Below, piece after piece: positions 7,823 to 35,721 of a stretch of 45,899 bases of DNA. The stretch lies in IMG/VR virus record IMGVR_UViG_3300045988_015578, positions 1 to 45,899 of that record; one strand, given 5' to 3'. Positions within the stretch are counted from its first letter, which is position 1. Every line of letters begins with the position of its first letter. Source of the DNA: a virus. Under the pieces are notes generated by a model. That model did no database searches, was not told where the DNA came from, and worked only from the letters and a program-made list of their open reading frames with translations. The translations under genes and the position numbers were made by a program.

Positions 7823-9445
7823 ATGGACTTAACGCCTAAACAGAAAGCGTTTGCAGATGAATATATCAAGAATGGCGGAAATGCATCTGATGCCGCGAGG
7901 AAAGCCGGATACGCACCTAAGAGCGCTGATGTAATAGGGCGCGAGAACTTACGGAAACCTACGATTTCTGCATATATAGCCGAAAAACAGTCTCTCATCG
8001 AAAAACAAAAAGGCACTGACATCATGTCACTGGCAGAAATTCAGCAACGCCGTTCTATGATCGCAAGAGGTGAGCTGACTGATTCATTCGGATTCGCCCC
8101 GGACTTCTCCGACCAGCTGAAATCTATGAATGATCTGGAAAAGGCATTAAAAATTAAACAAGAGCAGGAAGAAAAGAAAGCAGCAGAGGAAGCTGCTAGA
8201 AATGCGAAGCCGTACCACATGGACCTGTACAACATTCCTGATTGCTTTCACCGGGCTATTAGAGATATTCGAGATAAGGAACATCTGGAGTATGTATTTA
8301 AGGGCGGACGTGGCTCCACGAAATCAACCACTGTTGGAATGACAATTGTGGAGCTGATGAAAAACAACCATGATATTCATGCAGTTGTTTGCCGTAAGGT
8401 CGGGAACACCATTAAAGATTCTGTGTATAACAAAATCAAATGGGCTATTGGAAAGCAGGAATTTACAGAAGAATTCGATTCTAAGTTATCACCTATGGAG
8501 ATTACGCTAAAAGCAACCGGACAAAAGATATACTTCCGTGGTGCTGATGACCCTGACAAAATTAAATCTATCAACCCTGAGTTCGGCTATATCGGCATTC
8601 TCTGGTTCGAGGAATTAGATCAGTTCGCAGGTACTGAGGAAATTCGTAAGATTGAGCAGTCTGCGATTCGTGGCGGCAACCTTGCATGGATATTTAAGAG
8701 CTTCAATCCGCCAAAAACAATGAATAACTGGGCTAATAAGTATGTTCTTGAACCGAAAGAGAACAGAATAGTTCATTCATCAACTTACTTGGACGTGCCA
8801 AAAGGATGGCTGGGGCAGCCATTTATTGACGAAGCAGAGCATCTGAAAGAAGTCAATCCAAACGCTTACGAACATGAATATATGGGAATTGCGAATGGAA
8901 ACGGCGGTAATGTATTTGAATATTTGGAAATCAGAGATATTACAGATGAAGAAATCAGTCACATGGACAAAATATTTCAGGGGTGTGACTGGGGATTTTT
9001 CCCTGATCCGTATGCTTTTATTCGTTTGTATTACAATCATAACACTGAAAAGATATATCTCATTGATGAAATTTACGAAAATAAATGGAGTAATAGGAAA
9101 TCAGCAGACGAGATTCTAAAAAGAAAATATGATGATTATACTATTACTTGCGATTCTGCGGAACCTAAATCAATCAATGATTATAGAGACTTTGGACTTC
9201 CAGCAAGGGGCGCAATAAAAGGGCCTGGAAGTGTGGAGTATTCTATGAAATGGCTTCAGACAAGGACTATCGTTATTGACCCCAAAAGAACGCCTAATGC
9301 TTACAAAGAGTTTTCAGAGTACGAATATGAAAGAGACAAAGATGGAAACGTTATAAGTGGATATCCTGACGAGAACAACCATTTAGTCGATGCCTGCAGA
9401 TACGCAACAGAATCATTGTGGAGAAGAAGGGGTAACAATGCATAA
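7823..9445 (+). CDS. terL: terminase: small-subunit-like HTH domain fused to a PBSX-type large subunit
   Basis: The N-terminal ~130 aa (LTPKQKAFADEYIKNGGNASDAARKAGY) look like a Terminase_2-type TerS. The rest has Walker A GGRGSTKS and PBSX-like TerL motifs. There is no stop between the two parts. Confidence 0.85.
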   Translation: MDLTPKQKAFADEYIKNGGNASDAARKAGYAPKSADVIGRENLRKPTISAYIAEKQSLIEKQKGTDIMSLAEIQQRRSMIARGELTDSFGFAPDFSDQLKSMNDLEKALKIKQEQEEKKAAEEAARNAKPYHMDLYNIPDCFHRAIRDIRDKEHLEYVFKGGRGSTKSTTVGMTIVELMKNNHDIHAVVCRKVGNTIKDSVYNKIKWAIGKQEFTEEFDSKLSPMEITLKATGQKIYFRGADDPDKIKSINPEFGYIGILWFEELDQFAGTEEIRKIEQSAIRGGNLAWIFKSFNPPKTMNNWANKYVLEPKENRIVHSSTYLDVPKGWLGQPFIDEAEHLKEVNPNAYEHEYMGIANGNGGNVFEYLEIRDITDEEISHMDKIFQGCDWGFFPDPYAFIRLYYNHNTEKIYLIDEIYENKWSNRKSADEILKRKYDDYTITCDSAEPKSINDYRDFGLPARGAIKGPGSVEYSMKWLQTRTIVIDPKRTPNAYKEFSEYEYERDKDGNVISGYPDENNHLVDACRYATESLWRRRGNNA

Positions 9446-10890
9446 TGGGACTTATAACAACACTAAAAAGGTGGTTTAACATGATATTCAAAAAACAAGC
9501 CGAAGAGGACTTCAACATCCAGGCAGCAGAATTTCCAGAGATGGAATCACTGATTAACCGGTGCGCGAACATCTACAGAGGTATGCCGGAATGGTTAGAT
9601 GATAAGAATAATATCAAGACGATTAATTTTGCTAAATCTGTCTGCTCAGAGACAGCTCGGCTCGCAACACTGGCGATCGGAATTCAGATTGACGGCTCTG
9701 CAAGGGCAGCATGGCTACAGGAGCAGATCGATAAAGTATATTTCCAGATTCGGCACTGGGTGGAATATGGCTGCGCTTACGGAACGGTGTTCATTAAGCC
9801 GAACGGCGAGAGCCTTGACGTATTCACTCCGGCAGATGTGATTATTGTTGATTACGATAATCAGGAAATCAAAGGGATTATATTTAAAGATTCGTATACA
9901 GTTGGACGAAAATACTACACACGGCTTGAATATCATAGATTTGCTGAGATTACAATAGATGGCGTAACAACTTATCCGTACTATGTTTCCAACAGAGCTT
10001 ATGTATCAAAATCTCCTCAAAGCATCGGAAACAAGATTGACCTTAAACAGACCAAATGGGCTGAACTCATGGCAGACACGCCGCCGATTCTCAAGGCAAA
10101 CGGTGAGAAACTGGACGGACCTCTGTACGGAGTACTGCGGACACCACAGGCGAATAACGTGGATATCAGTACACCACTTGGACTTCCAATATTCGCAGAA
10201 GCTATCGAAGAGCTGAAAGATCTCGACATTGCATATAGCCGTAATGCCGGAGAGATTTTCGATTCTCAGAAGATTGTCCTGGCAGATGATAGACTGCTGA
10301 TGCCAAGCGGTGCACCTGTATCAGCTATGTCGCCACAGGGTATGGAGAACAGACGTAATGAGATGAACTTACCGCACTTTGTCAAGAATGTATTCGGACA
10401 GGTTGAGAAAGAGTTCTATCAGGAAATCAATCCGGTTCTCAACACAGATACCCGTATAAGCGGCATAAATGCCCTTTTAAGCCAGTTAGGGTACAAGATT
10501 GGATTCTCCAACGGGTACTTTGTTTTTAACGAATCTAGCGGCATTCAGACAGCTACAGGAGTAGAAGCAGAACAGCAGAGGACAGTGCAGTTCGTCAAGG
10601 ATGTAAGGGATAAGTTGGAGTCTTGCCTAGATGAAGTTATTTACGCATTGAACGTTTACGCTGATCTGTACGGGCTTGCACCGGTTGGGGCTTATGAAGT
10701 AAATTACGACTTTGGCGATATCCTATATGTGCGTGAAAACGACCGTGCAAGATGGTGGCAGTATGTGACGACTGGAAAGGTTCCGGCATGGATGTACTTC
10801 GTGAAATTCGAGGGAATGACCGAGGAAGAAGCTAAGGCAATGGTTGAAGAAGCCCAGCCAGACGAACCAAAACTGTTTGGAGATGAGTAA
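9445..10890 (+). CDS. portal protein (SPP1 gp6-like)
   Basis: 481 aa, immediately after the terminase, with the acidic C-terminus typical of portals. Confidence 0.8.
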   Translation: MGLITTLKRWFNMIFKKQAEEDFNIQAAEFPEMESLINRCANIYRGMPEWLDDKNNIKTINFAKSVCSETARLATLAIGIQIDGSARAAWLQEQIDKVYFQIRHWVEYGCAYGTVFIKPNGESLDVFTPADVIIVDYDNQEIKGIIFKDSYTVGRKYYTRLEYHRFAEITIDGVTTYPYYVSNRAYVSKSPQSIGNKIDLKQTKWAELMADTPPILKANGEKLDGPLYGVLRTPQANNVDISTPLGLPIFAEAIEELKDLDIAYSRNAGEIFDSQKIVLADDRLLMPSGAPVSAMSPQGMENRRNEMNLPHFVKNVFGQVEKEFYQEINPVLNTDTRISGINALLSQLGYKIGFSNGYFVFNESSGIQTATGVEAEQQRTVQFVKDVRDKLESCLDEVIYALNVYADLYGLAPVGAYEVNYDFGDILYVRENDRARWWQYVTTGKVPAWMYFVKFEGMTEEEAKAMVEEAQPDEPKLFGDE

Positions 10891-12515: not shown

Positions 12516-13070
12516 TTATGTTTTATTGTATTTCCACACAAAACCTTTGTGAGTTCGACGTTCACCACGACAGCAACGACTGATGCTATCTTTTCGACCG
12601 TTTACGTGGTCTGCGGCATCTTCTGCGCAACTCCACTCAGCGATAAAATGATTGTTTAAGTCATATTGATAAACAACTTTTGCTCTTGGACTGTTTCCTC
12701 TCTTATAATTTCCATGAGGAGGGACAGAAGCGGAGCGCAATCCTGTATTTATTGCATGAAAAGTGTTTTCTTGTTTCGTGACCCATTCAAGATTATCAAC
12801 AGTATTGTTTTTCTTGTTCCCGTCAATATGATTCACTACTTCTTTTTGTTCCACGTTCGGAATAAATGCCTCTGCAACAAGGCGGTGAACGAGATAGTTC
12901 TTACGTTTGTAATTAACAACAAGTGTTACTCTATCGTAACCATCGTTTTCAAAAGGAGTCAAATACTTGCATCCTTTATTGTAATTTCTCCTTGCACTAA
13001 TAATATTGCCAAGATTGCTTATTTTGTATAATCCTTCATAACCGACAACATCTTTCCAAATTTCTTGCAT
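12516..13070 (-). CDS. HNH homing endonuclease (NUMOD4 + HNH_3 type)
   Basis: WKDVVGYEGLYKISNLGNI is NUMOD4-like and VNHIDGNKKNNTVDNLEW is an HNH motif. The gene is free-standing on the opposite strand. Confidence 0.85.
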   Translation of the reverse strand: MQEIWKDVVGYEGLYKISNLGNIISARRNYNKGCKYLTPFENDGYDRVTLVVNYKRKNYLVHRLVAEAFIPNVEQKEVVNHIDGNKKNNTVDNLEWVTKQENTFHAINTGLRSASVPPHGNYKRGNSPRAKVVYQYDLNNHFIAEWSCAEDAADHVNGRKDSISRCCRGERRTHKGFVWKYNKT

Positions 13071-13740: not shown

Positions 13741-13770
13741 AAGGAGAGGCAATTTGCCCCTCCTTCTTTT
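13741..13770. terminator. bidirectional terminator between convergent genes
   Basis: Stem aaggagaggc/gcccctcctt (one mismatch) with T-runs on both strands. Confidence 0.65.
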
Positions 13771-14503
13771 ATACAAAATCTTCTTTTACAACTCTCTCGA
13801 GAAGATTGACTACATACTCTGGAGGATTGCGTTTACCACCCTCCCAGTTCTCAATACTCCTTTTAGGAATACCATATTTTTCAGAAAAAGCTTGCTGTGT
13901 AAGTCCAGATAACGTTCTGATTTTGTGAAAATCAAGAGGATCTGAAGAAACTTTTTTAGGAAACACATCCTCTTCCTTTACCTGATATGTGAAGAATCCC
14001 ATCGAGGATGGAAAAATTCTAAAATAAAATTTTTCATCGTCATCTTCTTCTATCCAGGTTTGCTGTAAAAATATTTTCGGACACCATTCATCTAATGCAA
14101 ACTTTTCATCTGAATCAGAGTAAACAACATAAGAACATAAATTTCCCGTATCTGATTTCATTCTCTTCATTTCGTTATAGATGAATCTAGTCCTGGCATA
14201 TCTGACTATGCTATACGCTTGTTCTGTTCTGAGTTCTGGGAATAAAGCTTCGATTTGTTTATAAATCTTATTCCACAGACATGCATGGTGTTTACTATCT
14301 AATTCAACTGGTATGTCGATATAACCGCTGCTACGAACTGACAAAAATCGGTACACTACATCAATTATCTCCTGATTTCTAACCGGAGGAATTAATTCTG
14401 TATCATCTGGAAAATCAAATGGCAAAAGGTTTGATTTTTCCTGATTCTCGAGATCATGTTTTACCATGCTCAAGAACTCCTTATATCCGTATTCTTTCAG
14501 CAT
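13769..14503 (-). CDS. protein with a C-terminal XRE-type HTH and an unknown ~190-aa N-terminal domain
   Basis: C-terminus reads IRTLSGLTQQAFSEKYGIPKRSIENWEGGKRNPPEYVVNLL. A GGAGGT RBS inside the upstream gene indicates translational coupling. Confidence 0.75.
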   Translation of the reverse strand: MLKEYGYKEFLSMVKHDLENQEKSNLLPFDFPDDTELIPPVRNQEIIDVVYRFLSVRSSGYIDIPVELDSKHHACLWNKIYKQIEALFPELRTEQAYSIVRYARTRFIYNEMKRMKSDTGNLCSYVVYSDSDEKFALDEWCPKIFLQQTWIEEDDDEKFYFRIFPSSMGFFTYQVKEEDVFPKKVSSDPLDFHKIRTLSGLTQQAFSEKYGIPKRSIENWEGGKRNPPEYVVNLLERVVKEDFV

Positions 14504-14504
14504 C

Positions 14505-14948
14505 TTATTTTACCTCCATCTTTTCTTTGTAATCATTCAGAGCTTCCTTGAATTTTCTTTCGCAAATATTGTTTTCACAATCAATATCACTATTTAACTC
14601 AACGTCTAATTCTCTTGGACTGTAAGCACGATAACGGTTTTCAATAAACCATTTTGCTTCTTTGATCTCATAAATAGTTTCCATGGCTTTTTTCATGCGC
14701 TCCGGCATTTTTTTTCTGCCTTTAGATTCATGAAAATTAATGCAACTGTTTCCATACTCGATCATCTTCTTACGGATATCCTCAGCCCAGGCAATCTGTT
14801 TTGGGCTGCCAACCAGTTCTGGTAATTCTTTACACATATCTTTTGCTTCCTTCCATGCTTTCTTGAGACCGGAGGAAATTGTCATTGCAGATTTCTTAAC
14901 CAGCTCCCATGCTCTTTTCATTATTACTGATAAATTATATTTCTTCAT
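14505..14948 (-). CDS. helical K/E-rich protein of unknown function (147 aa)
   Basis: AAGGAGG lies 7 nt upstream of ATG 14948. The track start 15113 runs into the promoter region. Confidence 0.7.
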   Translation of the reverse strand: MKKYNLSVIMKRAWELVKKSAMTISSGLKKAWKEAKDMCKELPELVGSPKQIAWAEDIRKKMIEYGNSCINFHESKGRKKMPERMKKAMETIYEIKEAKWFIENRYRAYSPRELDVELNSDIDCENNICERKFKEALNDYKEKMEVK

Positions 14949-14990
14949 GTCTTTTTCCTCCTTAGATTCCTTGTTCCTCTTTCTGATATT

Positions 14991-15019
14991 ATAATACCAC
15001 TCAACGGGTGATATGTCAA
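14991..15019 (-). promoter_or_regulatory. near-consensus sigma-A promoter for the antisense two-gene operon
   Basis: On the - strand: TTGACA, a 17-nt spacer, then TATTAT. Two CAAAAAAGT repeats lie upstream. Confidence 0.7.
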
Positions 15020-15096
15020 CACTTTTTTGATACTTTTTTGAACTTCTTGGATTAATACTTATGTGTAAAAATATAATCAGAAAGGTGGTGTGTAAG

Positions 15097-15567
15097 ATGG
15101 CATTATATAACAATCCTTATCAATATAGTTTTGGTGTTCCGGGACAGATGAATCAATTTCAGCAACAGCCTGTCCAGATGCCAGCTCAACCAGTGCAGCA
15201 ACCCCAGCAAAATAATAATGGTATCCTGTGGGTCTCCGGTGAAGTAGGCGCAAAATCCTATCTGGTAGCACCTGGAACAAGTGTTTTACTGATGGATTCA
15301 GAGAGTGAAAAGTTCTACATAAAATCCACAGATGTTTCTGGTATGCCACAGCCGTTACGGACGTTTGAGTATCATGAAGTAGGCACTCAGATGCCGCCTA
15401 AACAGCCTGTTCAGAACATGGACAGTAAATACGTCACCAGACAGGAATACGACGATTTAAAGGGCAAATACGAAGCTATCATAAACCGATTAAATTCTTT
15501 TTCTGAGCCTGTTAGGGCTAATACCGCACAGGAATCAGCGACCAAGGGAGGAAACGCAGATGAGTAA
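15097..15567 (+). CDS. Q/P/N-rich N-terminus plus a conserved beta-rich core; unknown function (cassette gene A)
   Basis: AAAGGTGG RBS. N-terminus reads NNPYQYSFGVPGQMNQFQQQPVQMPAQPVQQPQQNNN. Confidence 0.7.
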   Translation: MALYNNPYQYSFGVPGQMNQFQQQPVQMPAQPVQQPQQNNNGILWVSGEVGAKSYLVAPGTSVLLMDSESEKFYIKSTDVSGMPQPLRTFEYHEVGTQMPPKQPVQNMDSKYVTRQEYDDLKGKYEAIINRLNSFSEPVRANTAQESATKGGNADE

Positions 15568-15781
15568 TCCATTATTTAACGCGCTTGGCGGTGGGATGCC
15601 GCAGGGAAATGGGCCAATGCAGATGATACAACAATTTATGCAGTTTAAACAGAATTTTAAGGGAGACCCGAAAGCAGAAGTTGAGAAGATGTTACAATCT
15701 GGGAAGATTTCCCAACAGCAGCTTAACCAGGTTCAGCAAATGGCAGGGCAATTCCAGCACATGCTGAAAGGAATGAAATAG
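15560..15781 (+). CDS. small Q-rich protein (cassette gene B)
   Basis: Its ATG overlaps the stop of gene A. Sequence includes MQMIQQFMQFKQNF...QQQLNQVQQMAGQFQ. Confidence 0.65.
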   Translation: MSNPLFNALGGGMPQGNGPMQMIQQFMQFKQNFKGDPKAEVEKMLQSGKISQQQLNQVQQMAGQFQHMLKGMK

Positions 15782-15834
15782 TACATTACAATCTGGCCAG
15801 ATTGATGTAAATATACAAAAAGGAGATTATAACT

Positions 15835-16614
15835 ATGGATGGAAATTATAGTTTAGCAGATATTGCCGCTGCTACTGGAAACGGTAGAAATAATGACGGC
15901 ATGTTTGGTGGAGATGGTAGCTGGTGGATTATTGTTTTATTCATTTTTGCTTTCTTCGGATGGGGAAACAACGGCTGGGGCAATAATGGAAACGGCGGCG
16001 GATATGTAGCCACAGCAGCTACTCAGGCAGACATTCAGAGAGGATTTGACAACTCCGCAGTGATCAGCAAGCTTGACGGAATCAATAGTGGTCTGTGTGA
16101 TGGCTTCTATGCCATGAATAATGGTATGCTTACCGGATTCAATGGAATCAACACAAACATCATGCAGACTGGCTTCGGTATCCAGCAGGCTATTAATGCT
16201 GACACTGTAGCTAATATGCAGAATACCAATGCGCTCCAGGCACAGCTTGCAAACTGCTGCTGTGAAACAAGGGAAGCAATCCAGGGTGTAAACTACAATA
16301 TGGCACAGAATACCTGTGCATTGCAGAACACCATGAACAGCAACACAAGAGATATTATCGACAGCCAGAATGCAGGGACAAGAGCGATTCTTGACTATCT
16401 CTGCAATGAAAAGATTTCTAACTTGCAGGCTGAAAACAATGACCTCAGACGTGCTGCATCTCAGGATCGCCAGAGTGCACTTCTCACAACTGCAATGGCT
16501 TCACAGACACAGCAGCTTATTAATGCGATTAATCCGGCACCGATTCCGGCATATCAGGTTCCTAACCCGAACACATATTACGGATGCGGATGCAACACCG
16601 GATGTAATTGTTAA
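15835..16614 (+). CDS. G/N/W-rich membrane-anchored protein with a Cys-rich C-terminus (cassette gene C)
   Basis: AAAGGAG RBS. Features: a WWIIVLFIFAFFGWGNNGWGNNGNGGG segment, an internal CCCE, and the C-terminus YYGCGCNTGCNC. Confidence 0.7.
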   Translation: MDGNYSLADIAAATGNGRNNDGMFGGDGSWWIIVLFIFAFFGWGNNGWGNNGNGGGYVATAATQADIQRGFDNSAVISKLDGINSGLCDGFYAMNNGMLTGFNGINTNIMQTGFGIQQAINADTVANMQNTNALQAQLANCCCETREAIQGVNYNMAQNTCALQNTMNSNTRDIIDSQNAGTRAILDYLCNEKISNLQAENNDLRRAASQDRQSALLTTAMASQTQQLINAINPAPIPAYQVPNPNTYYGCGCNTGCNC

Positions 16615-16678
16615 CAACTTCATATCGAGAGTATCTTTCGATTGATTTCGGATGTCGGCTTATGCCGTATTACACAGA

Positions 16679-16703
16679 GGGGCAGGCTGAGACCTGTCCT
16701 TTT
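16679..16703 (+). terminator. rho-independent terminator after cassette gene C
   Basis: Stem gggcagg/cctgtcc (one G.U pair) followed by TTTT. Confidence 0.55.
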
Positions 16704-16725
16704 GTGATATGAAAGGAGTATTTTT

Positions 16726-17148
16726 ATGGCAGAATTCACAAATGTAGCTGCTCAGACTGTAGCAGCAAATGGAAACGTAGTATTTTCAAACACAGCAGTT
16801 AAAGGTTCTAACTGTATTCAGCACAGAGAGGGAAGCGGAATTATTACGCTGAGAGGACTGACTAATCAGTGCAAAGCGAGATTCTTCGTGGATTTTTCTG
16901 GCAATATCGCAATTCCAGCAGGCGGCACTGCCGGAGCTATTTCTCTGGCTATTGCAATCTCTGGCGAACCTGTATTATCTTCACAGATGATTTCCACACC
17001 GACAGCAGTAGACCAGTATAACAATGTGTCCTCTGGTATCTATATTGATGTACCACGCGGATGTTGCGTTAATATTGCAGTAGAGAATACCAGTGATCAG
17101 GCTATTTCTGTTGCAAATGCGAACATTGTTGTAACCAGAGAAGCATAG
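16726..17148 (+). CDS. small beta-rich protein resembling BclA-C-terminal / C1q-TNF-like domains (cassette gene D)
   Basis: AAAGGAG RBS. The sequence alternates hydrophobic residues in a beta-strand pattern (for example GAISLAIAISGEPV and NANIVVTR). The fold assignment is inference. Confidence 0.65.
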   Translation: MAEFTNVAAQTVAANGNVVFSNTAVKGSNCIQHREGSGIITLRGLTNQCKARFFVDFSGNIAIPAGGTAGAISLAIAISGEPVLSSQMISTPTAVDQYNNVSSGIYIDVPRGCCVNIAVENTSDQAISVANANIVVTREA

Positions 17149-17159
17149 GAGGTGTGATT

Positions 17160-17714
17160 ATGAGAGACATTAAAGACTTATGCGCAAGAATCGAAGATGA
17201 GCTTTCCAAAATCGCTGATAATGGACTGACCACCGGAAATCTGGAAATGACATACAAGTTGATTGACATGTACAAAGATATCAAGAATACGCAGTACTGG
17301 GATAAGAAAGTAGAGTATTACAACGCTGTCCTTGATGAAATGCGTAGTGGATACAATGACGATTACAGCGAGCGCGGAAGAAAACGCGACAGTATGGGGA
17401 GATACAGCTCAAATGACGGCAGAATGATGCCGGATTACGATCGGGGCAGTTCTTATGCCAGACGTGGGGAACATTACGTCAGAGGGCATTACAGCCGTTC
17501 TGATGGACGGGATGCTTATGACGATTACATGACGCAGAAGCAAAGCTATCGTTCCGGCAAGTCTGAAGACTGCAAGAGGAAGATGCTTGCCGCTCTGGAA
17601 GAACATCTGGACGAACTTACAACAGAAATGAGCGATATGTCCAAGGATGCAGAGTGCCGGGAAGAACGTGATCTTGTCAAGAGATACGTGGAAAAGCTCC
17701 GGGATATGCTCTAA
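17160..17714 (+). CDS. helical protein with an R/D/Y/S-rich disordered centre (cassette gene E)
   Basis: AGGAGG lies 7 nt upstream of ATG 17160. The centre reads RGRKRDSMGRYSSNDGRMMPDYDRGSSYARRGEHYVRGHYSRSDGRDAYDDY. Confidence 0.7.
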   Translation: MRDIKDLCARIEDELSKIADNGLTTGNLEMTYKLIDMYKDIKNTQYWDKKVEYYNAVLDEMRSGYNDDYSERGRKRDSMGRYSSNDGRMMPDYDRGSSYARRGEHYVRGHYSRSDGRDAYDDYMTQKQSYRSGKSEDCKRKMLAALEEHLDELTTEMSDMSKDAECREERDLVKRYVEKLRDML

Positions 17715-17721
17715 TTAGCTA

Positions 17722-17761
17722 AAACATGTACCACAACTTTTTGGATACTTTGTGGTAAAAT
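17722..17761 (+). promoter_or_regulatory. late-promoter motif, copy 2
   Basis: The same 20-mer as 7455-7474, followed at identical spacing by TGTGG and the -10 hexamer TAAAAT. Confidence 0.6.
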
Positions 17762-18062
17762 ATATTCATAGGGAAGATTCGGAAGATTCGTAAGTGGTTG
17801 ACGCCACTTGACATAGACATTTTTTCATTGATTCCTCCTTTCTTGGGTACGTGTCCTTAACAGAAACAGGTTCGGGCGGAATCTGGAGGTTGAAAAGCGG
17901 ATGCAATTTCCGACACGTATCATTACTGTCTATATGACTTGCTCGCTCGCATAGGCAGTACGCACCTCCTTGTAAAAGGTAAATGGGCGGACGGATGCCC
18001 GAAACAACTCGTGGCAGGCATGACACGTTAAACACCTTGCTAACCCGGGAATCCGGGTTATG

Positions 18063-18131
18063 TGGAATGTACGCTAGTGGAAAACTGACAGAGTCGCGCT
18101 CTGGTCTCCGGTTCGATTCCGGGCGTTCCGC
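18063..18131 (+). tRNA. tRNA-like element 1 (non-canonical; probably not a decoding tRNA)
   Basis: Acceptor tggaatg/cgttccg (two G.U pairs), a D-loop AGTGG, and a T-arm tccgg-TTCGATT-ccggg. The anticodon arm is cagag-tcgcg-ctctg, with only a 5-nt loop. Total length is 69 nt. Confidence 0.5.
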
Positions 18132-18422
18132 TTTAATCCGCTTAGAGTTAAGCTGTTTGTATACAGGCGGTCTATGTCTCAGGTGGATTTACGCATGAGC
18201 GTAAACGTACAACTCACTAGGCGTTTGCGTAAAAAACTTTTTAGAGAGATGAGACCACGGGCCGTGAGAAGTGATAGTCGGCAATTCTAAAAGAACCATC
18301 TAGTTCATGTGTTTTACGATGGAAAGGTTAATGCTTATCTGGATATTTTCATCCGGTCCGAAAGCATGTGATGTGGGAATCAACCCAGTTTCTTTTCAGA
18401 GAACTGGCCGTTATAGGCGGTA

Positions 18423-18490
18423 CGGAATGTAGCTCAGTGGTAGATCGCACTGTAAATGTGAGGTCGCAGGTTCGATTCCTGCCTTTCCGA
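18423..18490 (+). tRNA. tRNA-like element 2 (short anticodon arm; the best loop reading, CU-GUA-AA, would be Tyr)
   Basis: Acceptor cggaatg/ctttccg (one T-T mismatch), TAGCTCAGTGGTAGATCG D-arm, and a perfect T-arm gcagg-TTCGATT-cctgc. The region between the D- and T-arms is 4 nt shorter than in a standard tRNA. Confidence 0.6.
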
Positions 18491-18568
18491 TTACCTTGCC
18501 AGTGGTCTAACTGGCTTAATCCATTTACCTGCGGCGGCAGGTCAATAAACACGACCAGGAGGATGTAT

Positions 18569-19201
18569 ATGCAGAAACTTATTGACACACTTAAATCATT
18601 TGGAATTGAAATCCCGGAGGACAAGCAGGCAGATGTGAAGAAAGCACTCTCTGAGCATTACAAGAATGCCAAAGAAGTAGCGAAAACCCTGTCAAAAGTT
18701 GAGGGAGAACGTGACGACTGGAAAGAACGCGCCGAGACAGCAGAAGAAACCTTGAAAGGGTTTGACGGTATCGACCCGGCAAATATCCAGACAGAGCTTG
18801 CCGGATGGAAGAAAAAAGCCGAGGATGCAGAGAAAGAATTCAATGCAAAAATCTACGACCGCGATTTTTCAGATGCGCTTAAAACAGCACTTGATGATGT
18901 TAAGTTTTCCAGTGAAGCTGCAAAGAAATCTGTTATGGCAGACATCAAGGAAGCAGGATTGAAGCTGAAAGACGGTAAAATCCTTGGACTGAATGATTTG
19001 ATTGAGCAGATGAAGCAGTCTGACGCATCCGCTTTTGTAGATGAATCTCAGCAACAGGCTCAGCAGAATCAGGCAAGGTTTACTACTCATGTTGGACAGC
19101 AGCAGACACCGGGGAACATGACAAAGAAAGATATCGAAGCAATCAAAGACCCGTCCGAGAGACAGGCAGCAATTGCTCAGAATATCCAGTTATTCCAGTG
19201 A
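18569..19201 (+). CDS. scaffolding protein (phage GP20-like)
   Basis: AGGAGG lies 6 nt upstream of ATG 18569. The protein is helical and E/K-rich and sits before the capsid gene. The track start 18368 runs into the tRNA-like element. Confidence 0.8.
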   Translation: MQKLIDTLKSFGIEIPEDKQADVKKALSEHYKNAKEVAKTLSKVEGERDDWKERAETAEETLKGFDGIDPANIQTELAGWKKKAEDAEKEFNAKIYDRDFSDALKTALDDVKFSSEAAKKSVMADIKEAGLKLKDGKILGLNDLIEQMKQSDASAFVDESQQQAQQNQARFTTHVGQQQTPGNMTKKDIEAIKDPSERQAAIAQNIQLFQ

Positions 19202-19212
19202 TTTTTTACACC

Positions 19213-19278
19213 GACTATATGCCAGAGTATAGCCGCTAACCCAACGCCTTAATAGTTATGGGTAGAAAGGATTTTTTT
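19213..19278 (+). promoter_or_regulatory. conserved 5' leader element, copy 1 (upstream of the major capsid gene)
   Basis: A hairpin whose 3' arm is TATAGCC, then GCTAACC...GCCTT...AGTTA..GG.AGAAAGGA...TATG. It shares the 13-mer ATAGCCGCTAACC with 22795-22807. Confidence 0.6.
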
Positions 19279-20445
19279 ATGCCAGCAAAAACAAATCTTA
19301 TTATGACTAATGATATTCATGTCACAGCACGTGAGATTGATTTTGTTACCAGATTCGAAAGAAACTGGGAACACTTACGTGAAATCCTTGGTATCATGCG
19401 TCCTATCAAAAAACAGCCGGGTGCTGTACTGAAATCTAAGTACGCAGAGGGTACTTTACAGAGTGGACTTGTTGGTGAGGGTGAGGAAATCCCTTACAGC
19501 AAGTTTACTGTAAAAGAAAAGAACTATGCGGAAATGACTATCGAAAAGTACGCAAAGGCTGTATCTATCGAAGCAATCAAGGATCACGGTTATGAGAACG
19601 CTGTTCAGATGACTGATGACGAATTCCTTTTCCAGCTTCAGACTGATGTTACCGGCAGATTCTATGACTATCTGAAAACCGGTACGCTTACTTCCACAGA
19701 AACTACATTCCAGATGGCTCTGGCAATGGCTAAAGGCCGTGTTGAGAACAAATTCAAACAAATGCACAGAAACGTGACTGGCGTTGTTGGATTCGTGAAC
19801 ATTCTGGACGTATATGAATATCTCGGAGCAGCTGAGATCACCATTCAGAACCAGTTCGGATTCCAGTACATGAAGGACTTTATGGGATTTAATACAATCT
19901 TCTTACTGTCCGACAGCGAGATTCCAAGAGGGCAGGTTATCGCTACTCCTGTCGAGAACATCGTTCTGTACTATGTTGACCCGAACGAATCTGACTTCGC
20001 AAGAGCAGGTCTTGTATACACCGTATCTGGTGAGACAAACCTGATCGGATTCCATACGCAGGGCAACTACCACACAGCAGTGTCTGAGGCGTTCGCGGTT
20101 ATGGGACTTACTCTTTTTGCGGAGTACATTGATGCAATTGCAGTAATTACCATTGATGAGACACCAGCACTTGGCACTCTGGTAGTAACATCTGCGGAAG
20201 GAACAGCAACTGGTGATACAAAAATCACTGTAAATCCGGCTAAGGAAAATGCCGGCAATGTGTATAAATACAAAGTTGCAGCAGAAGCAGTAGCTGTTGG
20301 ATATGGACAGAATCTCAGAAACTGGAGTACTTGGGATGGAAAAGCCGATATCACAGCAGCAACCGGACAGAAGATCACAGTGGTTGAGTGTGATGGAACA
20401 TACAAAGCACTGAATGCCGGAAGTGCAAGCGTGACAGCAAAATGA
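19279..20445 (+). CDS. major capsid protein with a C-terminal Ig-like domain
   Basis: Follows the scaffold gene. The GAAAGGA RBS favours ATG 19279. The C-terminal ~90 aa are beta-rich and Big-like. Confidence 0.8.
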   Translation: MPAKTNLIMTNDIHVTAREIDFVTRFERNWEHLREILGIMRPIKKQPGAVLKSKYAEGTLQSGLVGEGEEIPYSKFTVKEKNYAEMTIEKYAKAVSIEAIKDHGYENAVQMTDDEFLFQLQTDVTGRFYDYLKTGTLTSTETTFQMALAMAKGRVENKFKQMHRNVTGVVGFVNILDVYEYLGAAEITIQNQFGFQYMKDFMGFNTIFLLSDSEIPRGQVIATPVENIVLYYVDPNESDFARAGLVYTVSGETNLIGFHTQGNYHTAVSEAFAVMGLTLFAEYIDAIAVITIDETPALGTLVVTSAEGTATGDTKITVNPAKENAGNVYKYKVAAEAVAVGYGQNLRNWSTWDGKADITAATGQKITVVECDGTYKALNAGSASVTAK

Positions 20446-34543: not shown

Positions 34544-34567
34544 GGTTAGTCACAGTTAGTCACAAAC
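34544..34567. repeat. arm-type-site candidate: tandem TTAGTCACA x2, overlapping the integrase stop codon
   Basis: GGTTAGTCACAGTTAGTCACAAAC also encodes the integrase C-terminus ...FVTNCD*. Confidence 0.6.
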
Positions 34568-35721
34568 GGAACTTTTATTTTCTCTATTTCTTCCCGGAGT
34601 TCTTTCAGGGTTCTATGACCGTACACAGCGTTCGTAACATCGTTCCCGAACGAATGACCCAGCATCCTCTTCCGGTCGTTCTCCCGGACGCCGTATTTTT
34701 CGCACAGGGTAGAAAAGGTGTGCCGGCAATCGTGCGGCGTGTGCTTCGGGTTGCCGATTATCCCTAATCGTTCTAGTGTAGGGTAGAACAGGGCGTTTCG
34801 GTGTTGCGTCTGGGAATAGATACAGAGCTTGCCGTTTTGCGTCAGGACTTTGTTCTTCGCAAACTCGTATATGGCCGAGTGGATTGGAACAATTCTGTCT
34901 TTTCCGGCTGCGGTCTTAATGCCGCCTTGAAAGTATTTTTCTTCGAGATTAGTCGTAAGCTTCAGAACTTCGCCGATTCTCCAGCCGGAGTAGCACATGA
35001 TCAGAATGAGCTGTACTTCTGGATCGTCGGCGTTCTGCCAGAGGACCCGAAGCTCCAAATCAGAAAACGGTGTCCCGTGCTCGACGTCATCTTTTGTTTT
35101 GACAGAAACATACAGCGCCTTGTTTTCCGTGACTATCTCTGAGTAGATTGCGAATTTATACATCTGCTTAAAAAGCATCAGAATCGTGTTTAAACTCTGC
35201 GTTTTGAGCGGGCAGTCATCAATAACCTTTTGCAGGTCCGGTGCTTTCAAGTCTTCAAATGCACGATTATGCAAAGGCTTGCTGTTAAGATACCCGCAGT
35301 GATATGCGTTCTTTGAAGACTTCGACAGATTAGTGTCTTCCGGAAACTTCCATGATATGAATTTTTCATATACTTCTGAGAACGTCAATTTGTGCGTTTC
35401 CGGGTGCTTTTCCTCTGTGCCCTTAAATGTATTGTAGTCCGACAAAATACGGCTTATAAGGGCATCTGCGTCCGTTGTGGGGGCAATCTCAAGTTCTTTT
35501 TCCATACCCGGCTTGTACGTCCCGGCTTTGTATGCTGTGAGAACAGCGAATCCTTTCAGATAGTCGTCAACGTAGCAGATCGCAGGCGGACGAACTGCTT
35601 TTCCTGTTGCGTCCAGCGTTGCCGGTGGGTGCACTGCATAGCAGTTTCTTCGACCCTTGCCGAGATAGCGGATAGACCCGAAGCTATTCGGCAATTTTGG
35701 GTACTTCTTTCTTTTTGCCAT
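34546..35721 (-). CDS. int: tyrosine integrase
   Basis: The catalytic pattern ...WRIGE...HDCRHTF...LGHS...Y, plus a basic N-terminal arm-binding-like domain. Confidence 0.9.
   Translation of the reverse strand: MAKRKKYPKLPNSFGSIRYLGKGRRNCYAVHPPATLDATGKAVRPPAICYVDDYLKGFAVLTAYKAGTYKPGMEKELEIAPTTDADALISRILSDYNTFKGTEEKHPETHKLTFSEVYEKFISWKFPEDTNLSKSSKNAYHCGYLNSKPLHNRAFEDLKAPDLQKVIDDCPLKTQSLNTILMLFKQMYKFAIYSEIVTENKALYVSVKTKDDVEHGTPFSDLELRVLWQNADDPEVQLILIMCYSGWRIGEVLKLTTNLEEKYFQGGIKTAAGKDRIVPIHSAIYEFAKNKVLTQNGKLCIYSQTQHRNALFYPTLERLGIIGNPKHTPHDCRHTFSTLCEKYGVRENDRKRMLGHSFGNDVTNAVYGHRTLKELREEIEKIKVPFVTNCD

What the first reader, a model, noticed from the sequence alone, without database searches (positions are those of the whole stretch)
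18063..18490. Two paralogous tRNA-like elements with defective anticodon arms
Both elements (18063-18131 and 18423-18490) have a 7-bp acceptor stem, a TA spacer, an AGTGG D-loop and a canonical T-arm (GGTTCGATTCC). They also share the strings GGAATGTA and TTCCG. Each is about 4 nt too short.

Element 1 has a 5-bp anticodon stem with only a 5-nt loop (tcgcg). Element 2 has either a 3-bp stem with loop TGTAAAT, or a 5-bp stem with loop CTGTAAA (anticodon GTA, Tyr) that must borrow D-stem bases.

Neither encodes CCA, and both are followed by a (C)TTAATCC string. They may be pseudo-tRNAs, processing signals (RNase P / RNase Z) that cut the long RNA, or decoys or mimics for tRNA-targeting host defences.
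Basis: partly seen in the sequence, partly recalled or inferred. Interest (0 to 1): 0.7.

Follow-up and report, generated by a model that had tools for sequence, protein, structure and literature searches.

The report
Truncated tRNA look-alikes in phage leader
Two tRNA-shaped RNAs that cannot read codons in the normal way sit in a swap-prone tRNA cassette slot just upstream of a gut phage's capsid-scaffold gene, and most likely serve as cut-here signals, possibly also as decoys, rather than as working tRNAs.

Summary
Element 1 (E1, 18063-18131) and Element 2 (E2, 18423-18490) are tRNA-shaped and each is 3-5 nt short between the D stem and the T stem.

ARAGORN and Rfam call E2 a 68-nt tRNA-Tyr(GUA), but only with a crippled D arm or a 3-bp anticodon stem. 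Neither tool calls E1.

E1 is a conserved family found in at least 120 gut-phage contigs and in no representative bacterial genome. Its stems and the 15:48 tertiary pair covary. It has a 5-nt 'anticodon' loop of variable sequence and an invariant G-1:C73 acceptor end, as in tRNA-His.

Both elements belong to a recombining array of tRNA and tRNA-like cassettes. The array lies between a RAGATH-21 RNA and the scaffold-gene leader of a temperate phage whose relatives occur in Lachnospiraceae assemblies. Near-identical phages carry more than 12 different occupants in this slot, including a ROOL RNA. Every leader of the window's type is preceded by a tRNA-shaped element at fixed spacing.

Best reading (about 0.45): these are non-decoding substrates of RNase P and RNase Z that punctuate the late transcript. 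Rival readings are a trans-acting decoy or anti-defence role, relics, and decoding tRNAs.

This is a new variant of a known kind.

The parts
17846..17921 (+). RAGATH-21 RNA (RF03097). It lies upstream of the array. In a sister clade it abuts the scaffold leader directly.
   Evidence: Scores 90.1 bits against a gathering score of 70.3. It is present in many relatives. It is directly followed by GP20-b in L207-type loci.
18008..18059 (+). Conserved left border of the portable array. It includes hairpin D, AACCCGG-GAAU-CCGGGUU (18042-18059).
   Evidence: It travels with E1 both in the scaffold context and in the ~75-kb-phage tRNA islands. The MFE fold forms the hairpin.
18062..18062 (+). G-1 of E1. 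It can pair with discriminator C73 (18131) to give an 8-bp acceptor stem of tRNA-His type.
   Evidence: One search scored G-1 with C73 in 136 of 141 E1 copies. The other 5 are 72-nt-variant copies cut at the 5' edge of the extraction window; full-length copies of that variant also have G-1.
18063..18131 (+). Element 1 (E1), a 69-nt non-decoding tRNA-like RNA. Its parts are: acceptor 18063-69/18124-30; D arm 18072-87; 5-bp stem 18089-93/18099-103 with 5-nt loop UCGCG 18094-98; 3-nt variable region 18104-06; T arm 18107-23; discriminator C 18131.
   Evidence: Not called by ARAGORN or Rfam tRNA. The cloverleaf is 93.7% paired across 27 variants, against 50% or less for slid controls, and 6-7 pairs change on both sides, including 15:48. 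The R1 model scores it 96.3 bits.
18132..18422 (+). A 291-nt spacer between the two elements. It includes a possible decayed tRNA leader plus 5' fragment at about 18353-18388, and the leader hairpin of E2 (GCC-GUUAUA-GGC, 18407-18418).
   Evidence: The same spacer, at 95.5-100% identity, is present in 21 loci. A shorter, ~195-nt version is the commonest form. The resemblance of the relic to leaders of Met-like modules was judged by eye.
18423..18490 (+). Element 2 (E2), a 68-nt truncated tRNA-Tyr(GUA)-type element. In the 5-bp register the loop CUGUAAA is 18450-56, the anticodon GUA is 18452-54, and the stem is 18445-49/18457-61. In the alternative register a 3-bp stem CAC/GUG (18448-50/18458-60) closes loop UGUAAAU.
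   Evidence: ARAGORN calls it tRNA-Tyr. Rfam tRNA scores it 47.3 bits with a 4-nt deletion in the anticodon stem. Canonical relatives on the same chassis score 64-73 bits. The identical sequence occurs in more than 50 arrays.
18491..18568 (+). G-type scaffold leader. It runs: UUACCUU, hairpin GCCAGU-GGUCUA-ACUGGC (18498-18515), UUAAUCC (18516-22), hairpin CCUGC-GGCG-GCAGG (18528-41), and SD AGGAGG (18557-62).
   Evidence: 92-100% identical in relatives. The hairpin is kept through compensatory changes in L205 and L247. It is always preceded by a tRNA-shaped element at fixed spacing.
18569..19201 (+). Head scaffolding protein gene (GP20-like), followed by the major head protein gene at 19258-20445.
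   Evidence: phrog_194 head scaffolding protein, E=5.7e-22; phrog_544 major head protein, E=1.3e-44.

Best explanation
E1 and E2 are genuine tRNA-derived genes that have lost the ability to decode. They belong to a portable, recombining array of tRNA and tRNA-like cassettes. This temperate gut phage carries the array between a RAGATH-21 RNA and the leader of its scaffold-capsid operon. Relatives of the phage occur in Lachnospiraceae assemblies.

Proposed mechanism:
1. The array is transcribed on the + strand together with the late leader (inferred from gene orientation).
2. Each element folds into a tRNA L-shape. For E1 this is shown by covariation of all stems and of the 15:48 tertiary pair.
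3. Host type-B RNase P cuts at the 5' side. For E1 the cut probably leaves G-1, because G-1 pairs with C73.
4. RNase Z cuts after the discriminator, because no CCA is encoded.
5. The RNase Z cut at E2 creates the 5' end of the scaffold-capsid mRNA, 7 nt upstream of a conserved hairpin that could protect that end.
Steps 3-5 are inferred from established Firmicute tRNA processing.

These enzymes need only the acceptor/T-arm minihelix and the elbow. The anticodon arm is therefore unconstrained in this slot. That would explain why near-identical phages carry any of more than 12 tRNAs or tRNA-likes there, and why truncated arms such as E2's persist.

E1 is in addition a selectively maintained mimic with a tRNA-His-type acceptor end. 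It may be CCA-tailed, and even histidylated, without being used in translation. Its trans function, if it has one, is open.
For: **The constraint pattern matches what RNase P and RNase Z need.** Among 32 chassis-sharing modules, the acceptor, D arm and T arm are 84-92% identical pairwise. The segment from position 26 through the anticodon arm and variable loop is 60% identical. At least 5 further short-arm forms exist besides E2 and its GCA variant.

**The slot is hypervariable in near-isogenic phages.** In 80 loci whose scaffold protein is at least 97% identical, the element ending about 78 nt before the start codon varies widely. Occupants seen are:
- Met-like;
- Tyr of 68 nt and Tyr of 92 nt;
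- Asn;
- Thr;
- Val;
- Ile;
- Gln (two kinds);
- Ser;
- Cys;
- Leu-like;
- two non-tRNA cloverleaf types.
The exchange boundaries coincide with tRNA position +1 and the discriminator.

**Position is strictly coupled to the leader.** In 178 of 179 G-type leaders a T-loop motif lies 56-59 nt upstream of the leader core. The one exception, L205, carries a variant tRNA-like. The set spans scaffold proteins of about 70-100% identity.

**Non-decoding occupants can fill the slot alone.** E1-type does so in L055/56/81. The GTGGAACC-type does so in 10 loci.

**The RNAs fit Firmicute CCA-less processing.** No CCA is encoded, and UU follows the discriminator of both window elements and of the relatives read by eye. 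In Firmicutes, CCA-less precursors are cut by RNase Z after RNase P (PMC1874595).

**E1 folds as a tRNA.** 93.7% of cells are paired, against 50% or less for slid controls. The anticodon-like stem shows three pairs with compensatory changes. Position 15:48 is G:C in 16 variants and A:U in 10. Independent metagenome copies add compensatory changes in the acceptor and T stems.

**E1 cannot decode.** Its loop is 5 nt long and varies in sequence: UCGCG, UCGCA, UCGCU, UCGUG, CCGCU, UCACG.
Against: - The array is dispensable in a sister clade. 34 of 80 loci have RAGATH-21 joined directly to a GP20-b leader with no tRNA. tRNA-type processing is therefore not a general requirement for scaffold expression.
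- The same block of E1, spacer and tRNA also occurs in about 75-kb gut phages. There it is part of a Gln-Met-E1-Thr island next to early genes and ends in its own intrinsic terminator. In that setting the RNAs themselves look like the products.
- If E1 were only a cleavage signal, its anticodon-like stem would not need to be maintained by compensatory substitutions.
- Many loci are close relatives, so the counts are not independent events.
- No expression, cleavage or CCA-addition data were available. No sigma-70-like promoter was found in the region.
Confidence: 0.45

Rival explanations
1. The elements are trans-acting anti-defence RNAs. The array is accessory cargo that exploits the strongly expressed late leader. 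Canonical cassettes replenish host tRNAs destroyed by tRNA-targeting defence nucleases. Non-decoding members such as E2 and E1 act as nuclease-insensitive surrogates, decoys or sponges. E2 would offer a Tyr anticodon stem-loop on a body the ribosome cannot use. E1 would offer a tRNA-His-type acceptor end to enzymes that act on the tRNA body or 3' end, or to HisRS.
For: - Occupant identity turns over among near-identical phages, as in accessory or counter-defence hotspots.
- The array is portable between unrelated genomic contexts and is optional in a sister clade.
- Several occupants keep the anticodon but alter the loop around it. Met-like modules on two chassis types (the GGAAUG chassis with two covarying stem versions, and the L011 type) have C-[G/A]CAUA-G with no U33. 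Gln-CUG has G33. The L058-type has UCGUAGA.
- This parallels the anticodon-loop mutations proposed to evade anticodon nucleases (PMC10264068).
- Phage tRNA-Tyr and tRNA-Lys are shown to defeat Retron-Eco7 PtuAB and PrrC (PMC11555353).
- E2's loop CUGUAAA has the canonical features: U33, a GUA anticodon and A37. It matches the loop of the class II 92-nt Tyr tRNAs in sister arrays.
- Irregular G-1 tRNAs are charged by HisRS yet not used in translation (PMC5389517).
Against: - E1's loop is short and variable, so it cannot mimic a specific anticodon loop.
- In the T5-like phage SP15 system, rescue required a decoding-competent tRNA (PMC11555353).
- No tRNA-repair or tRNA-related protein genes were seen among the window genes scanned.
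- Host tRNA sequences and host defence nucleases were not available for comparison.
- This reading does not by itself explain the fixed spacing to the G-type leader.
Confidence: 0.3
2. The elements are neutral relics. E2, and perhaps E1, would be decaying tRNA pseudogenes or by-products of illegitimate recombination between chassis-sharing tRNAs. They would hitch-hike in an abundant, highly recombinogenic phage lineage and have no function of their own.
For: - The window array is a mosaic. Positions 18104-18443 differ from phage L089 at 4 of 340 positions, while both anticodon arms differ heavily. This is as expected from crossovers inside the conserved chassis.
- The phage encodes a Sak4-like annealing protein.
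- A possible tRNA fragment lies in the spacer.
- At least 5 further short-arm variants exist in relatives.
- All E2 copies are essentially identical, so there is no covariation evidence for E2 itself.
- Single-base anticodon variants (TGT/TAT/TGC; GTA/GCA) occur on the same tRNA body, which suggests relaxed selection on decoding.
Against: - Decay is confined to the anticodon arm. The acceptor, D-loop GG, T arm and 15:48 pair stay intact in every variant.
- E1 shows compensatory, not disruptive, substitutions in 6-7 pairs and an invariant G-1:C73.
- E2 persists in several recombinant backgrounds: two spacers, with or without RAGATH-21, and with several E1 variants.
- Every G-type leader keeps a tRNA-shaped element.
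Confidence: 0.15
3. The elements are working, if unusual, decoding tRNAs. E2 would be a structurally reduced tRNA-Tyr, with a D arm shortened as in some organellar tRNAs, that is charged and reads UAY. E1 would be a tRNA with a closed 32-38 pair and a 7-nt loop G-UCGCG-C.
For: - ARAGORN and Rfam both accept E2.
- E2 has A73, the discriminator of bacterial tRNA-Tyr (from my own knowledge), a canonical Tyr anticodon loop and a G15:C48 pair.
- In a 7-nt reading, E1's loop has U33 and a purine at position 37.
Against: - E2 cannot form a 4-bp D stem and a 5-bp anticodon stem at the same time.
- Bacterial tRNA-Tyr is class II, with a long variable arm (from my own knowledge). The array's own 92-nt Tyr cassettes have that form, whereas E2 is class I.
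- No full-length version of E2's anticodon arm exists in IMG/VR.
- E1's putative anticodon is not conserved: CGC, CGU and CAC all occur. Its position-37 base and variable loop also vary.
- The Rfam tRNA model does not report E1.
Confidence: 0.1

Closest known systems
Phage tRNA islands and phage tRNAs that counter tRNA-depleting defences (T5-like phage tRNA-Tyr vs Retron-Eco7; T1/T7 tRNA-Lys vs PrrC170; mycobacteriophage tRNAs with anticodon-loop mutations; PMC11555353, PMC10264068)
   Same: - The elements are phage-encoded, clustered tRNA genes without CCA.
- Content turns over rapidly between relatives.
- Some members have altered anticodon loops.
- E1 lies inside Gln-Met-E1-Thr islands in ~75-kb gut phages.
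   Different: - E1 and E2 lack a normal anticodon arm and are unlikely to decode.
- Here the array sits at a fixed position in the scaffold leader.
- No defence system or rescue has been tested.
Irregular G-1 tRNAs in polycistrons that are charged by HisRS but not used in translation (Mukai et al. 2017, PMC5389517)
   Same: - E1 has the G-1:C73 acceptor end, the main HisRS identity element.
- It has a non-His 'anticodon'.
- It lies in a polycistron of irregular tRNAs.
   Different: - Those RNAs are acidobacterial, often 8/4, have 7-nt loops, and are linked to toxin-antitoxin loci.
- E1 is phage-borne, has a standard 5-bp T stem, and has a 5-nt loop.
- Histidylation of E1 is untested.
tRNA-like 3'-end processing modules such as mascRNA of MALAT1/MEN-beta (recalled from my own knowledge: Wilusz et al. 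2008), and tRNA punctuation of polycistronic transcripts
   Same: - A tRNA-shaped element with a reduced, poorly conserved anticodon arm is recognised by RNase P and RNase Z.
- Its cleavage defines the end of a neighbouring functional RNA.
- The element is not used for decoding.
   Different: - Those examples are eukaryotic or organellar.
- In this phage the element would define an mRNA 5' end, and cleavage is only inferred.
- Rfam's mascRNA family did not match.
tRNA islands associated with ROOL and GOLLD RNAs in phages (PMC5737381, PMC12286853)
   Same: In relative L084 the same slot holds a ROOL RNA (371 bits) between two tRNAs. The window array is therefore part of the same kind of phage ncRNA island.
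   Different: The window has no ROOL or GOLLD match. It has RAGATH-21 instead.
Non-decoding tRNA-like small RNAs of Firmicutes such as B. cereus tRNA-Other (cited within PMC5389517)
   Same: It is a tRNA-derived RNA with an aberrant anticodon arm that has a non-translational role.
   Different: It is chromosomal and charged by LysRS. No sequence relationship to E1 or E2 was tested or seen.

Membership tests
Canonical tRNA (Rfam RF00005 / ARAGORN) | Reaches the curated score or is called by a tRNA finder | tested here: inconclusive
   The two elements give opposite results. E2 meets the test: 47.3 bits against a gathering score of 29, and ARAGORN calls it tRNA-Tyr. E1 does not: ARAGORN makes no call, and Rfam reports no tRNA match at E<=10; the only same-clan hit is a 15-nt T-loop match at 9.5 bits.
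Canonical tRNA (Rfam RF00005 / ARAGORN) | A 4-bp D stem, a 5-bp anticodon stem and a 7-nt loop all at once, with a variable loop of at least 4 nt | tested here: not met
   E2 has either 2-3 D-stem pairs with a 5-bp anticodon stem, or a D stem with a 3-bp anticodon stem. E1 has a 5-nt loop and a 3-nt variable region. The middle segment is 18-19 nt, against 22-23 nt in canonical relatives.
Canonical tRNA (Rfam RF00005 / ARAGORN) | Conserved tertiary-interaction nucleotides: U8, A14, G18G19, R15:Y48, T-loop UUCRAUU, G53-C61 | tested here: met
   All are present in both elements. In E1, position 15:48 covaries: G:C in 16 variants and A:U in 10.
Canonical tRNA (Rfam RF00005 / ARAGORN) | 3' CCA (encoded or added) and aminoacylation | not testable with these tools
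   CCA is not encoded. Its addition and any charging need experiments.
Bacterial tRNA-His | Extra G-1 paired with discriminator C73 | tested here: met
   For E1, G at 18062 pairs with C at 18131. One search scored this in 136 of 141 copies. The remaining 5 are 72-nt-variant copies cut at the extraction edge, and full-length copies of that variant also have G-1. E2 has A-1 and A73.
Bacterial tRNA-His | GUG anticodon in a 7-nt loop | tested here: not met
   The loop is UCGCG in the window. Variants are UCGCA, UCGCU, UCGUG, CCGCU and UCACG.
Phage anti-defence tRNAs (nuclease-evading or replenishing) | Decoding-competent tRNA of the targeted specificity | tested here: inconclusive
   E2 has a canonical Tyr loop on an abnormal body. 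E1 is clearly not decoding-competent.
Phage anti-defence tRNAs (nuclease-evading or replenishing) | Rescue of phage growth from a tRNA-targeting defence, or resistance to cleavage | not testable with these tools
   This needs infection or cleavage assays. No host tRNA or defence-gene set was available.
tRNA-like RNA-processing modules (mascRNA-type / tRNA punctuation) | Acceptor/T-arm minihelix plus elbow retained while the anticodon arm is reduced or unconstrained | tested here: met
   
tRNA-like RNA-processing modules (mascRNA-type / tRNA punctuation) | Fixed position at the boundary of a functional RNA | tested here: met
   E2's discriminator lies 7 nt before the conserved leader hairpin. 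In 178 of 179 G-type leaders a T loop lies 56-59 nt upstream of the leader core. However, 34 of 80 sister-clade loci have no tRNA at all.
tRNA-like RNA-processing modules (mascRNA-type / tRNA punctuation) | Cleavage by RNase P and RNase Z in vivo | not testable with these tools
   No transcript-end data were available.
E1 tRNA-like family (model R1 built here) | Match to the covariance model of 27 E1 variants | tested here: met
   E1 scores 96.3 bits, by construction. E2 scores 41.3 bits (E=6e-10). Nothing else in the window matches. Chassis tRNAs in relatives score 25-51 bits.
ROOL / GOLLD large phage RNAs | Match to RF03087 or the GOLLD model | tested here: not met
   There is no match in the window. 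ROOL is present in the same slot of L084 only.
tmRNA | tRNA-like domain plus tag reading frame | tested here: not met
   ARAGORN finds no tmRNA. The only hit is a 15-nt T-loop match to beta_tmRNA at 9.5 bits.

The most novel reading that the evidence does not exclude
E1 would define a new class of phage-encoded, non-decoding tRNA mimics. It is an L-shaped RNA with a tRNA-His-type G-1:C73 acceptor end and a contracted 5-nt loop, maintained by selection inside mobile phage tRNA islands. After RNase P and RNase Z processing and CCA addition, it would act in trans. It could be a sponge or decoy for host immune enzymes that attack the tRNA body or 3' end. Alternatively it could be a charged but non-translating HisRS substrate. 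E2-type cassettes would be anticodon-loop decoys. The fixed slot in front of the scaffold gene would then be a plug-in site for interchangeable RNA counter-defence cassettes.
Probability: 0.2. Interest if true: 0.8.

Novelty: new variant of a known kind. Interest (0 to 1): 0.6.

Why it matters
What phage tRNAs are for has been debated for decades (PMC10264068). This locus is close to a natural experiment on that question.

Near-isogenic gut phages carry interchangeable cassettes at one fixed slot. The cassettes range from fully canonical tRNAs to elements that plainly cannot decode. The slot always keeps a tRNA shape.

- If the shape alone is what matters, some 'phage tRNA genes' are really RNA-processing or stability signals. 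Counting them as translational capacity is then misleading.
- If the non-decoding forms act in trans, they would be a new kind of RNA counter-defence.

The locus also puts three orphan RNA classes into one testable transcript context: RAGATH-21, GP20-b-type leaders and ROOL. It adds a conserved tRNA-like family, E1, that current tRNA finders and Rfam do not report.

Tried and rejected
- **E1 in bacterial genomes.** A pattern scan of 185,579 representative genomes found no match. E1 is therefore not a recently captured host tRNA, at least among the representatives.
- **A full-length progenitor of E2.** I searched IMG/VR for GAGC, 0-3 nt, then the E2 anticodon stem-loop. There was no match.
- **Wider E1 diversity.** It mostly hit a coding sequence translating to VECTINGLGERAGNA, probably isopropylmalate or homocitrate synthase. 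Only 9 hits were true E1 copies.
- **Promoters and terminators.** The scan of 17500-18700 found no sigma-70-like promoter. The single terminator-like hit is just the E1 anticodon-like hairpin read on the minus strand.
- **Literature on RAGATH-21.** No paper was found.
- **Thermodynamic folding alone.** It is uninformative: z-scores were -1.1 for E1 and -0.8 for E2. The evidence comes from comparative data instead.
- **Rejected: attP or integrase target.** The elements are complete tRNA-shaped units about 16 kb from the integrase gene.
- **Rejected: diversity-generating retroelement.** The arm differences include indels and are explained by crossovers in the conserved chassis.
- **Rejected: coding region.** The ORFs overlapping the elements (17983-18198 on the + strand; 18349-18624 on the - strand) run across conserved RNA structures.
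- **Rejected: known tRNA-like families such as Y-RNA-like, mascRNA and tmRNA.** Rfam gave no match to any of them.
- **Downgraded: TTAATCC as a shared signal.** It is not conserved after E1 in relatives.
Full report
**1. The observation**

The window is a roughly 46-kb temperate siphophage-like genome. It encodes:
- a head scaffold protein (18569-19201) and a major head protein (19258-20445), assigned by PHROGs matches;
- large ORFs at 7823-9445 and 9445-10890, which I took to be the terminase and portal genes from their size and position only;
- an integrase (34546-35721, minus strand) and a Sak4-like annealing protein (40735-41385).

Its closest cellular matches are a Lachnospiraceae MAG, where the match lies on a 323-kb contig and so is probably a prophage, and an 'uncultured Dorea' bin.

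The 855-nt non-coding stretch from 17715 to 18568 lies between the last accessory gene and the scaffold gene. It holds, in order:
- a RAGATH-21 RNA (17846-17921, 90 bits);
- hairpin D (18042-18059);
- Element 1 (E1, 18063-18131);
- a 291-nt spacer;
- Element 2 (E2, 18423-18490);
- a two-hairpin leader with a strong SD.

ARAGORN calls only E2, as a 68-nt tRNA-Tyr(GUA) with a 5-bp anticodon stem, loop CUGUAAA, and a D stem reduced to 2-3 pairs. Rfam's tRNA model accepts E2 at 47.3 bits, but deletes four positions from the anticodon stem. Canonical tRNAs on the same chassis in relatives score 64-73 bits. The MFE fold offers a third arrangement of E2.

ARAGORN does not call E1, and Rfam reports no tRNA match for it even at E<=10. 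The segment between D stem and T stem is 19 nt in E1 and 18 nt in E2, against 22-23 nt in canonical relatives. This confirms 'about 4 nt too short'.

One detail needs correcting. TTAATCC follows E1 directly but follows E2 only after a 26-nt stretch that holds a hairpin. It is also not conserved after E1 in relatives.

**2. E1 is a conserved, structured, non-decoding tRNA-like family**

The hits comprise 28 sequence variants.

On an alignment of 27 variants, the cloverleaf is 93.7% paired, against 50% or less when partners are slid. Six helical pairs show changes on both sides. Three of those are in the anticodon-like stem: CAGAG/CUCUG, CAGGG/CCCUG, CAAAG/CUUUG and UAGG/CCUA.

The tertiary Levitt pair 15:48 is G:C in 16 variants and A:U in 10. 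Nine copies were recovered from metagenomes with a pattern that did not constrain the 3' half. They add compensatory changes in the T stem (U.G to G-C) and in the acceptor stem. These sequences are closely related, so the counts overstate the number of independent events. Even so, the substitutions are consistently structure-preserving.

The loop is 5 nt long and varies in sequence (UCGCG, UCGCA, UCGCU, UCGUG, CCGCU, UCACG). One sub-lineage has a longer arm, UAGG-GACGAGUAA-CCUA. E1 therefore cannot present a conserved anticodon.

In every copy whose 5' flank was read, the base before position 1 is G and the discriminator is C. This gives an eighth acceptor pair, G-1:C73, the hallmark and main HisRS identity element of bacterial tRNA-His (stated in PMC5389517). 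That paper also shows that irregular G-1 tRNAs with non-His anticodons are charged by E. coli HisRS yet not used in translation. It is the closest experimental precedent.

**3. E2 is a short member of the array's common tRNA chassis**

Many cassettes in relatives share these chassis parts:
- the acceptor (U/C)GGAAUG ... (U/A)UUCC(G/A);
- the D arm GCUCAGUGGUAGAGC;
- the T arm GCAGGUUCGAUUCCUGC.

They differ in the anticodon arm. Across 32 distinct modules, the acceptor, D and T parts are 84-92% identical pairwise, while the middle segment is 60% identical. The extraction pattern itself fixes some chassis positions, which inflates that contrast somewhat.

With the same 5' leader and the same body, the loop reads UGU (Thr), UAU (Ile), UGC (Ala), UAC (Val), a Met-like GCAUA, or the short E2 arm with GUA. 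Two contigs have GCA in the short arm. At least five other short-arm forms occur: L002, L017, L020, L021 and L066.

E2 itself is identical in more than 50 arrays, so it provides no covariation information. No full-length version of its anticodon arm exists in IMG/VR.

The E1-derived covariance model scores E2 at 41 bits and finds nothing else in the window. This supports 'paralogous' in the sense of a shared chassis.

**4. The slot is hypervariable and built by recombination**

In 80 loci whose scaffold protein is at least 97% identical to the window's, the element ending about 78 nt before the start codon varies widely. Occupants seen are:
- Met-like;
- Tyr of 68 nt and Tyr of 92 nt;
- Asn;
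- Thr;
- Val;
- Ile;
- Gln-UUG and Gln-CUG;
- Ser;
- Cys-like;
- Leu-like;
- E1-type;
- a second non-tRNA cloverleaf, the GTGGAACC type.

Across 174 arrays there are 83 distinct sequences of 77-950 nt, each with one to three modules. One of them, L084, contains a ROOL RNA at 371 bits. The exchange boundaries fall exactly at tRNA position +1 and the discriminator.

The window's arrangement, E1 then a 291-nt spacer then E2, occurs in 4 identical arrays, and its spacer occurs in 21 loci at 95.5-100% identity. Most of those spacer-sharing loci are ~75-kb phage islands that carry a canonical tRNA in place of E2. The commonest arrangement has a spacer of about 195 nt.

The block of E1, spacer and tRNA also occurs in different, roughly 75-kb gut phages. 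There it forms part of a Gln-Met-E1-Thr island next to anti-repressor and early genes, and it is followed by an intrinsic terminator.

Against one such phage, L089, the window differs at only 4 of 340 positions across 18104-18443. Both anticodon arms, however, are replaced. The window array is therefore a mosaic made by crossovers inside the conserved tRNA chassis. This is plausible for a phage that encodes a Sak4-type annealase.

**5. Coupling to the scaffold leader**

A sister clade, defined by the L206-type scaffold protein, shows the basal layout: RAGATH-21 directly followed by the GP20-b leader and then the scaffold gene. 34 of its 80 loci have no tRNA, and the E1 model also finds nothing in them. 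tRNAs are therefore optional cargo inserted between RAGATH-21 and the leader.

The window's own leader type behaves differently. Its core sequence is CCUGCGGCGGCAGGUCAAUAAACACGACCA. It is preceded by a tRNA-shaped element at fixed spacing in 178 of 179 cases, and the one exception, L205, carries a variant tRNA-like. The set includes scaffold proteins down to about 70% identity and all occupant types.

The discriminator is followed by UUACC, and 7 nt downstream by a hairpin that is kept through compensatory changes.

**6. Mechanism**

In Firmicutes, CCA-less tRNA precursors are cut by RNase P and then, after the discriminator, by RNase Z, after which CCA is added (PMC1874595). Both enzymes recognise the acceptor/T-arm stack and the elbow, not the anticodon arm. 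That last point is established knowledge, not tested here.

The constraint pattern at this slot matches that requirement. The tRNA shape, the elbow nucleotides and the exact spacing to the leader are all kept. Anticodon identity, and even arm length, are free.

I therefore think E2 most likely serves as a tRNA-type processing module. Its excision would create the 5' end of the scaffold-capsid mRNA just upstream of a protective hairpin. E1 would be excised in the same way.

- Shown: the structure, the conservation pattern, the positional coupling, the mosaic origin and the loss of a normal anticodon arm.
- Inferred: transcription, cleavage, CCA addition, and any effect on mRNA stability.

My confidence in this reading is about 0.45. 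Three facts lower it. The sister clade does without tRNAs. The island also exists as a free-standing unit. And E1's arm is maintained beyond what a cleavage signal needs.

**7. Rival explanations**

*A trans-acting counter-defence role (about 0.3).* This fits the cargo-like turnover and the published cases of phage tRNAs defeating tRNA nucleases (PMC11555353, PMC10264068). It also fits the recurrence of loops that keep the anticodon but lose U33: CGCAUAG or CACAUAG on two chassis types, UGCUGAA and UCGUAGA. E1's variable 5-nt loop, however, cannot mimic a particular anticodon loop.

*Neutral relics (about 0.15).* This fits the mosaicism and the invariance of E2. It does not explain the arm-restricted 'decay', E1's covariation, or the universal presence of a tRNA shape before this leader.

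*Genuine decoding (about 0.1, E2 only).* E2 cannot form normal D and anticodon stems at the same time. It also has class I architecture, whereas the array's own 92-nt Tyr cassettes are class II.

**8. Novelty**

Already known are phage tRNA islands, irregular or pseudo-tRNAs, tRNA-like processing signals, and the association of ROOL and GOLLD with tRNAs (PMC5737381, PMC12286853).

I did not find the following described:
- the E1 family, with its tRNA-His-type end and 5-nt loop, which ARAGORN and Rfam do not report;
- the fixed, hypervariable cassette slot between RAGATH-21 and a scaffold leader;
- the fact that non-decoding forms can fill that slot alone.

I rate the finding a new variant of a known kind, with interest 0.6.

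Noticed in passing
window 17846-17921 (+); L207 1322-1477; L247 1197-1348: RAGATH-21, an orphan Rfam motif, sits at the head of the scaffold leader. In a sister clade it is followed within 5 nt by the GP20-b leader motif. In L247 a tRNA follows it within 4 nt. Its four-helix layout, with a long closing stem and three hairpins, is cloverleaf-like.
   Followed up: partly
L025 ~2460-2515 (displayed at 761-812 of the 1330-nt upstream extract): In roughly 40% of the close relatives examined, RAGATH-21 is replaced by a different element. It is an 8-bp stem (UACGCACG/CGUGCGUA) enclosing a 17-nt linker and a perfect T-arm-like hairpin, ACAGG-UUCGAAU-CCUGU. This has the topology of a tRNA minihelix without D and anticodon arms.
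   Followed up: no
window 17832-17844 and 17963-17971 (+): Two motifs resembling the 3' end of 16S rRNA (the anti-Shine-Dalgarno sequence) flank RAGATH-21: UUCCUCCUUUCUU and CACCUCCUU. CCUCC motifs flank RAGATH-21 in L025, L206, L207 and L247 too. They could pair with the scaffold SD (AGGAGG, 18557-62) or with the GGAGG inside RAGATH-21.
   Followed up: no
L084 2282-2843: A ROOL RNA (RF03087, 371 bits) occupies the same cassette slot, between a tRNA-Met and a tRNA-Ser, in a phage whose scaffold protein is 98% identical to the window's.
   Followed up: partly
relatives, e.g. L005 1017-1090, L001 2576-2649, L011, L060: The 'tRNA-Met' cassettes on two chassis types (the GGAAUG chassis with two covarying stem versions, and the L011 type) have loop C-[G/A]CAUA-G. 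They lack U33 and have a conserved C32-G38 closing pair whose stem covaries (GAGAGC/GCUCUU vs GAGGAC/GUCCUU). This amounts to a 6-bp stem with a 5-nt loop. Gln-CUG cassettes have G33.
   Followed up: partly
L104, L107, L164, L089, L019 (slot-2 tRNA): The same tRNA body, behind the same leader, carries anticodons UGU, UAU, UGC or UAC. These differ by one or two bases, so anticodons shift among close relatives. The UGC form lacks the G3:U70 pair that AlaRS needs.
   Followed up: partly
window ~18353-18388 (+): A stretch of the spacer, CCGGUCCGAAAGCAUGUGAUGUGGGAAUCAACCCAG, resembles the leader plus the first ~20 nt of Met-like cassettes in relatives (CCGGUCCGAAAAGCAUAA|UGGAAUGUAGCUCAG). It is probably a recombination scar or a decayed tRNA 5' fragment.
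   Followed up: no
window 17826-17764 (-): A 20-codon minus-strand ORF, MKKCLCQVASTTYESSESSL, has a strong SD (AAAGGAGGAAUCA AUG). The ORF is not conserved in L025 or L207, so the SD-like sequence is more likely a plus-strand RNA feature.
   Followed up: partly
L126 5104-5223 (-), L170 5257-5374, L101 4886-5003: Rfam tRNA matches of 118-120 nt (47-50 bits) lie just downstream of E1 in ~75-kb phages. They may be tRNAs with a ~45-nt insertion or intron. In the same loci, 1.5-2 kb of unexamined sequence separates them from the next tRNA.
   Followed up: no
window 12516-13070 (-): An HNH homing-endonuclease gene (HNH_3, NUMOD4 and NUMOD1 domains) lies on the opposite strand among the head genes. 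An accessory block of unknown-function genes (13769-17714) separates the minor head protein gene from the scaffold gene.
   Followed up: no
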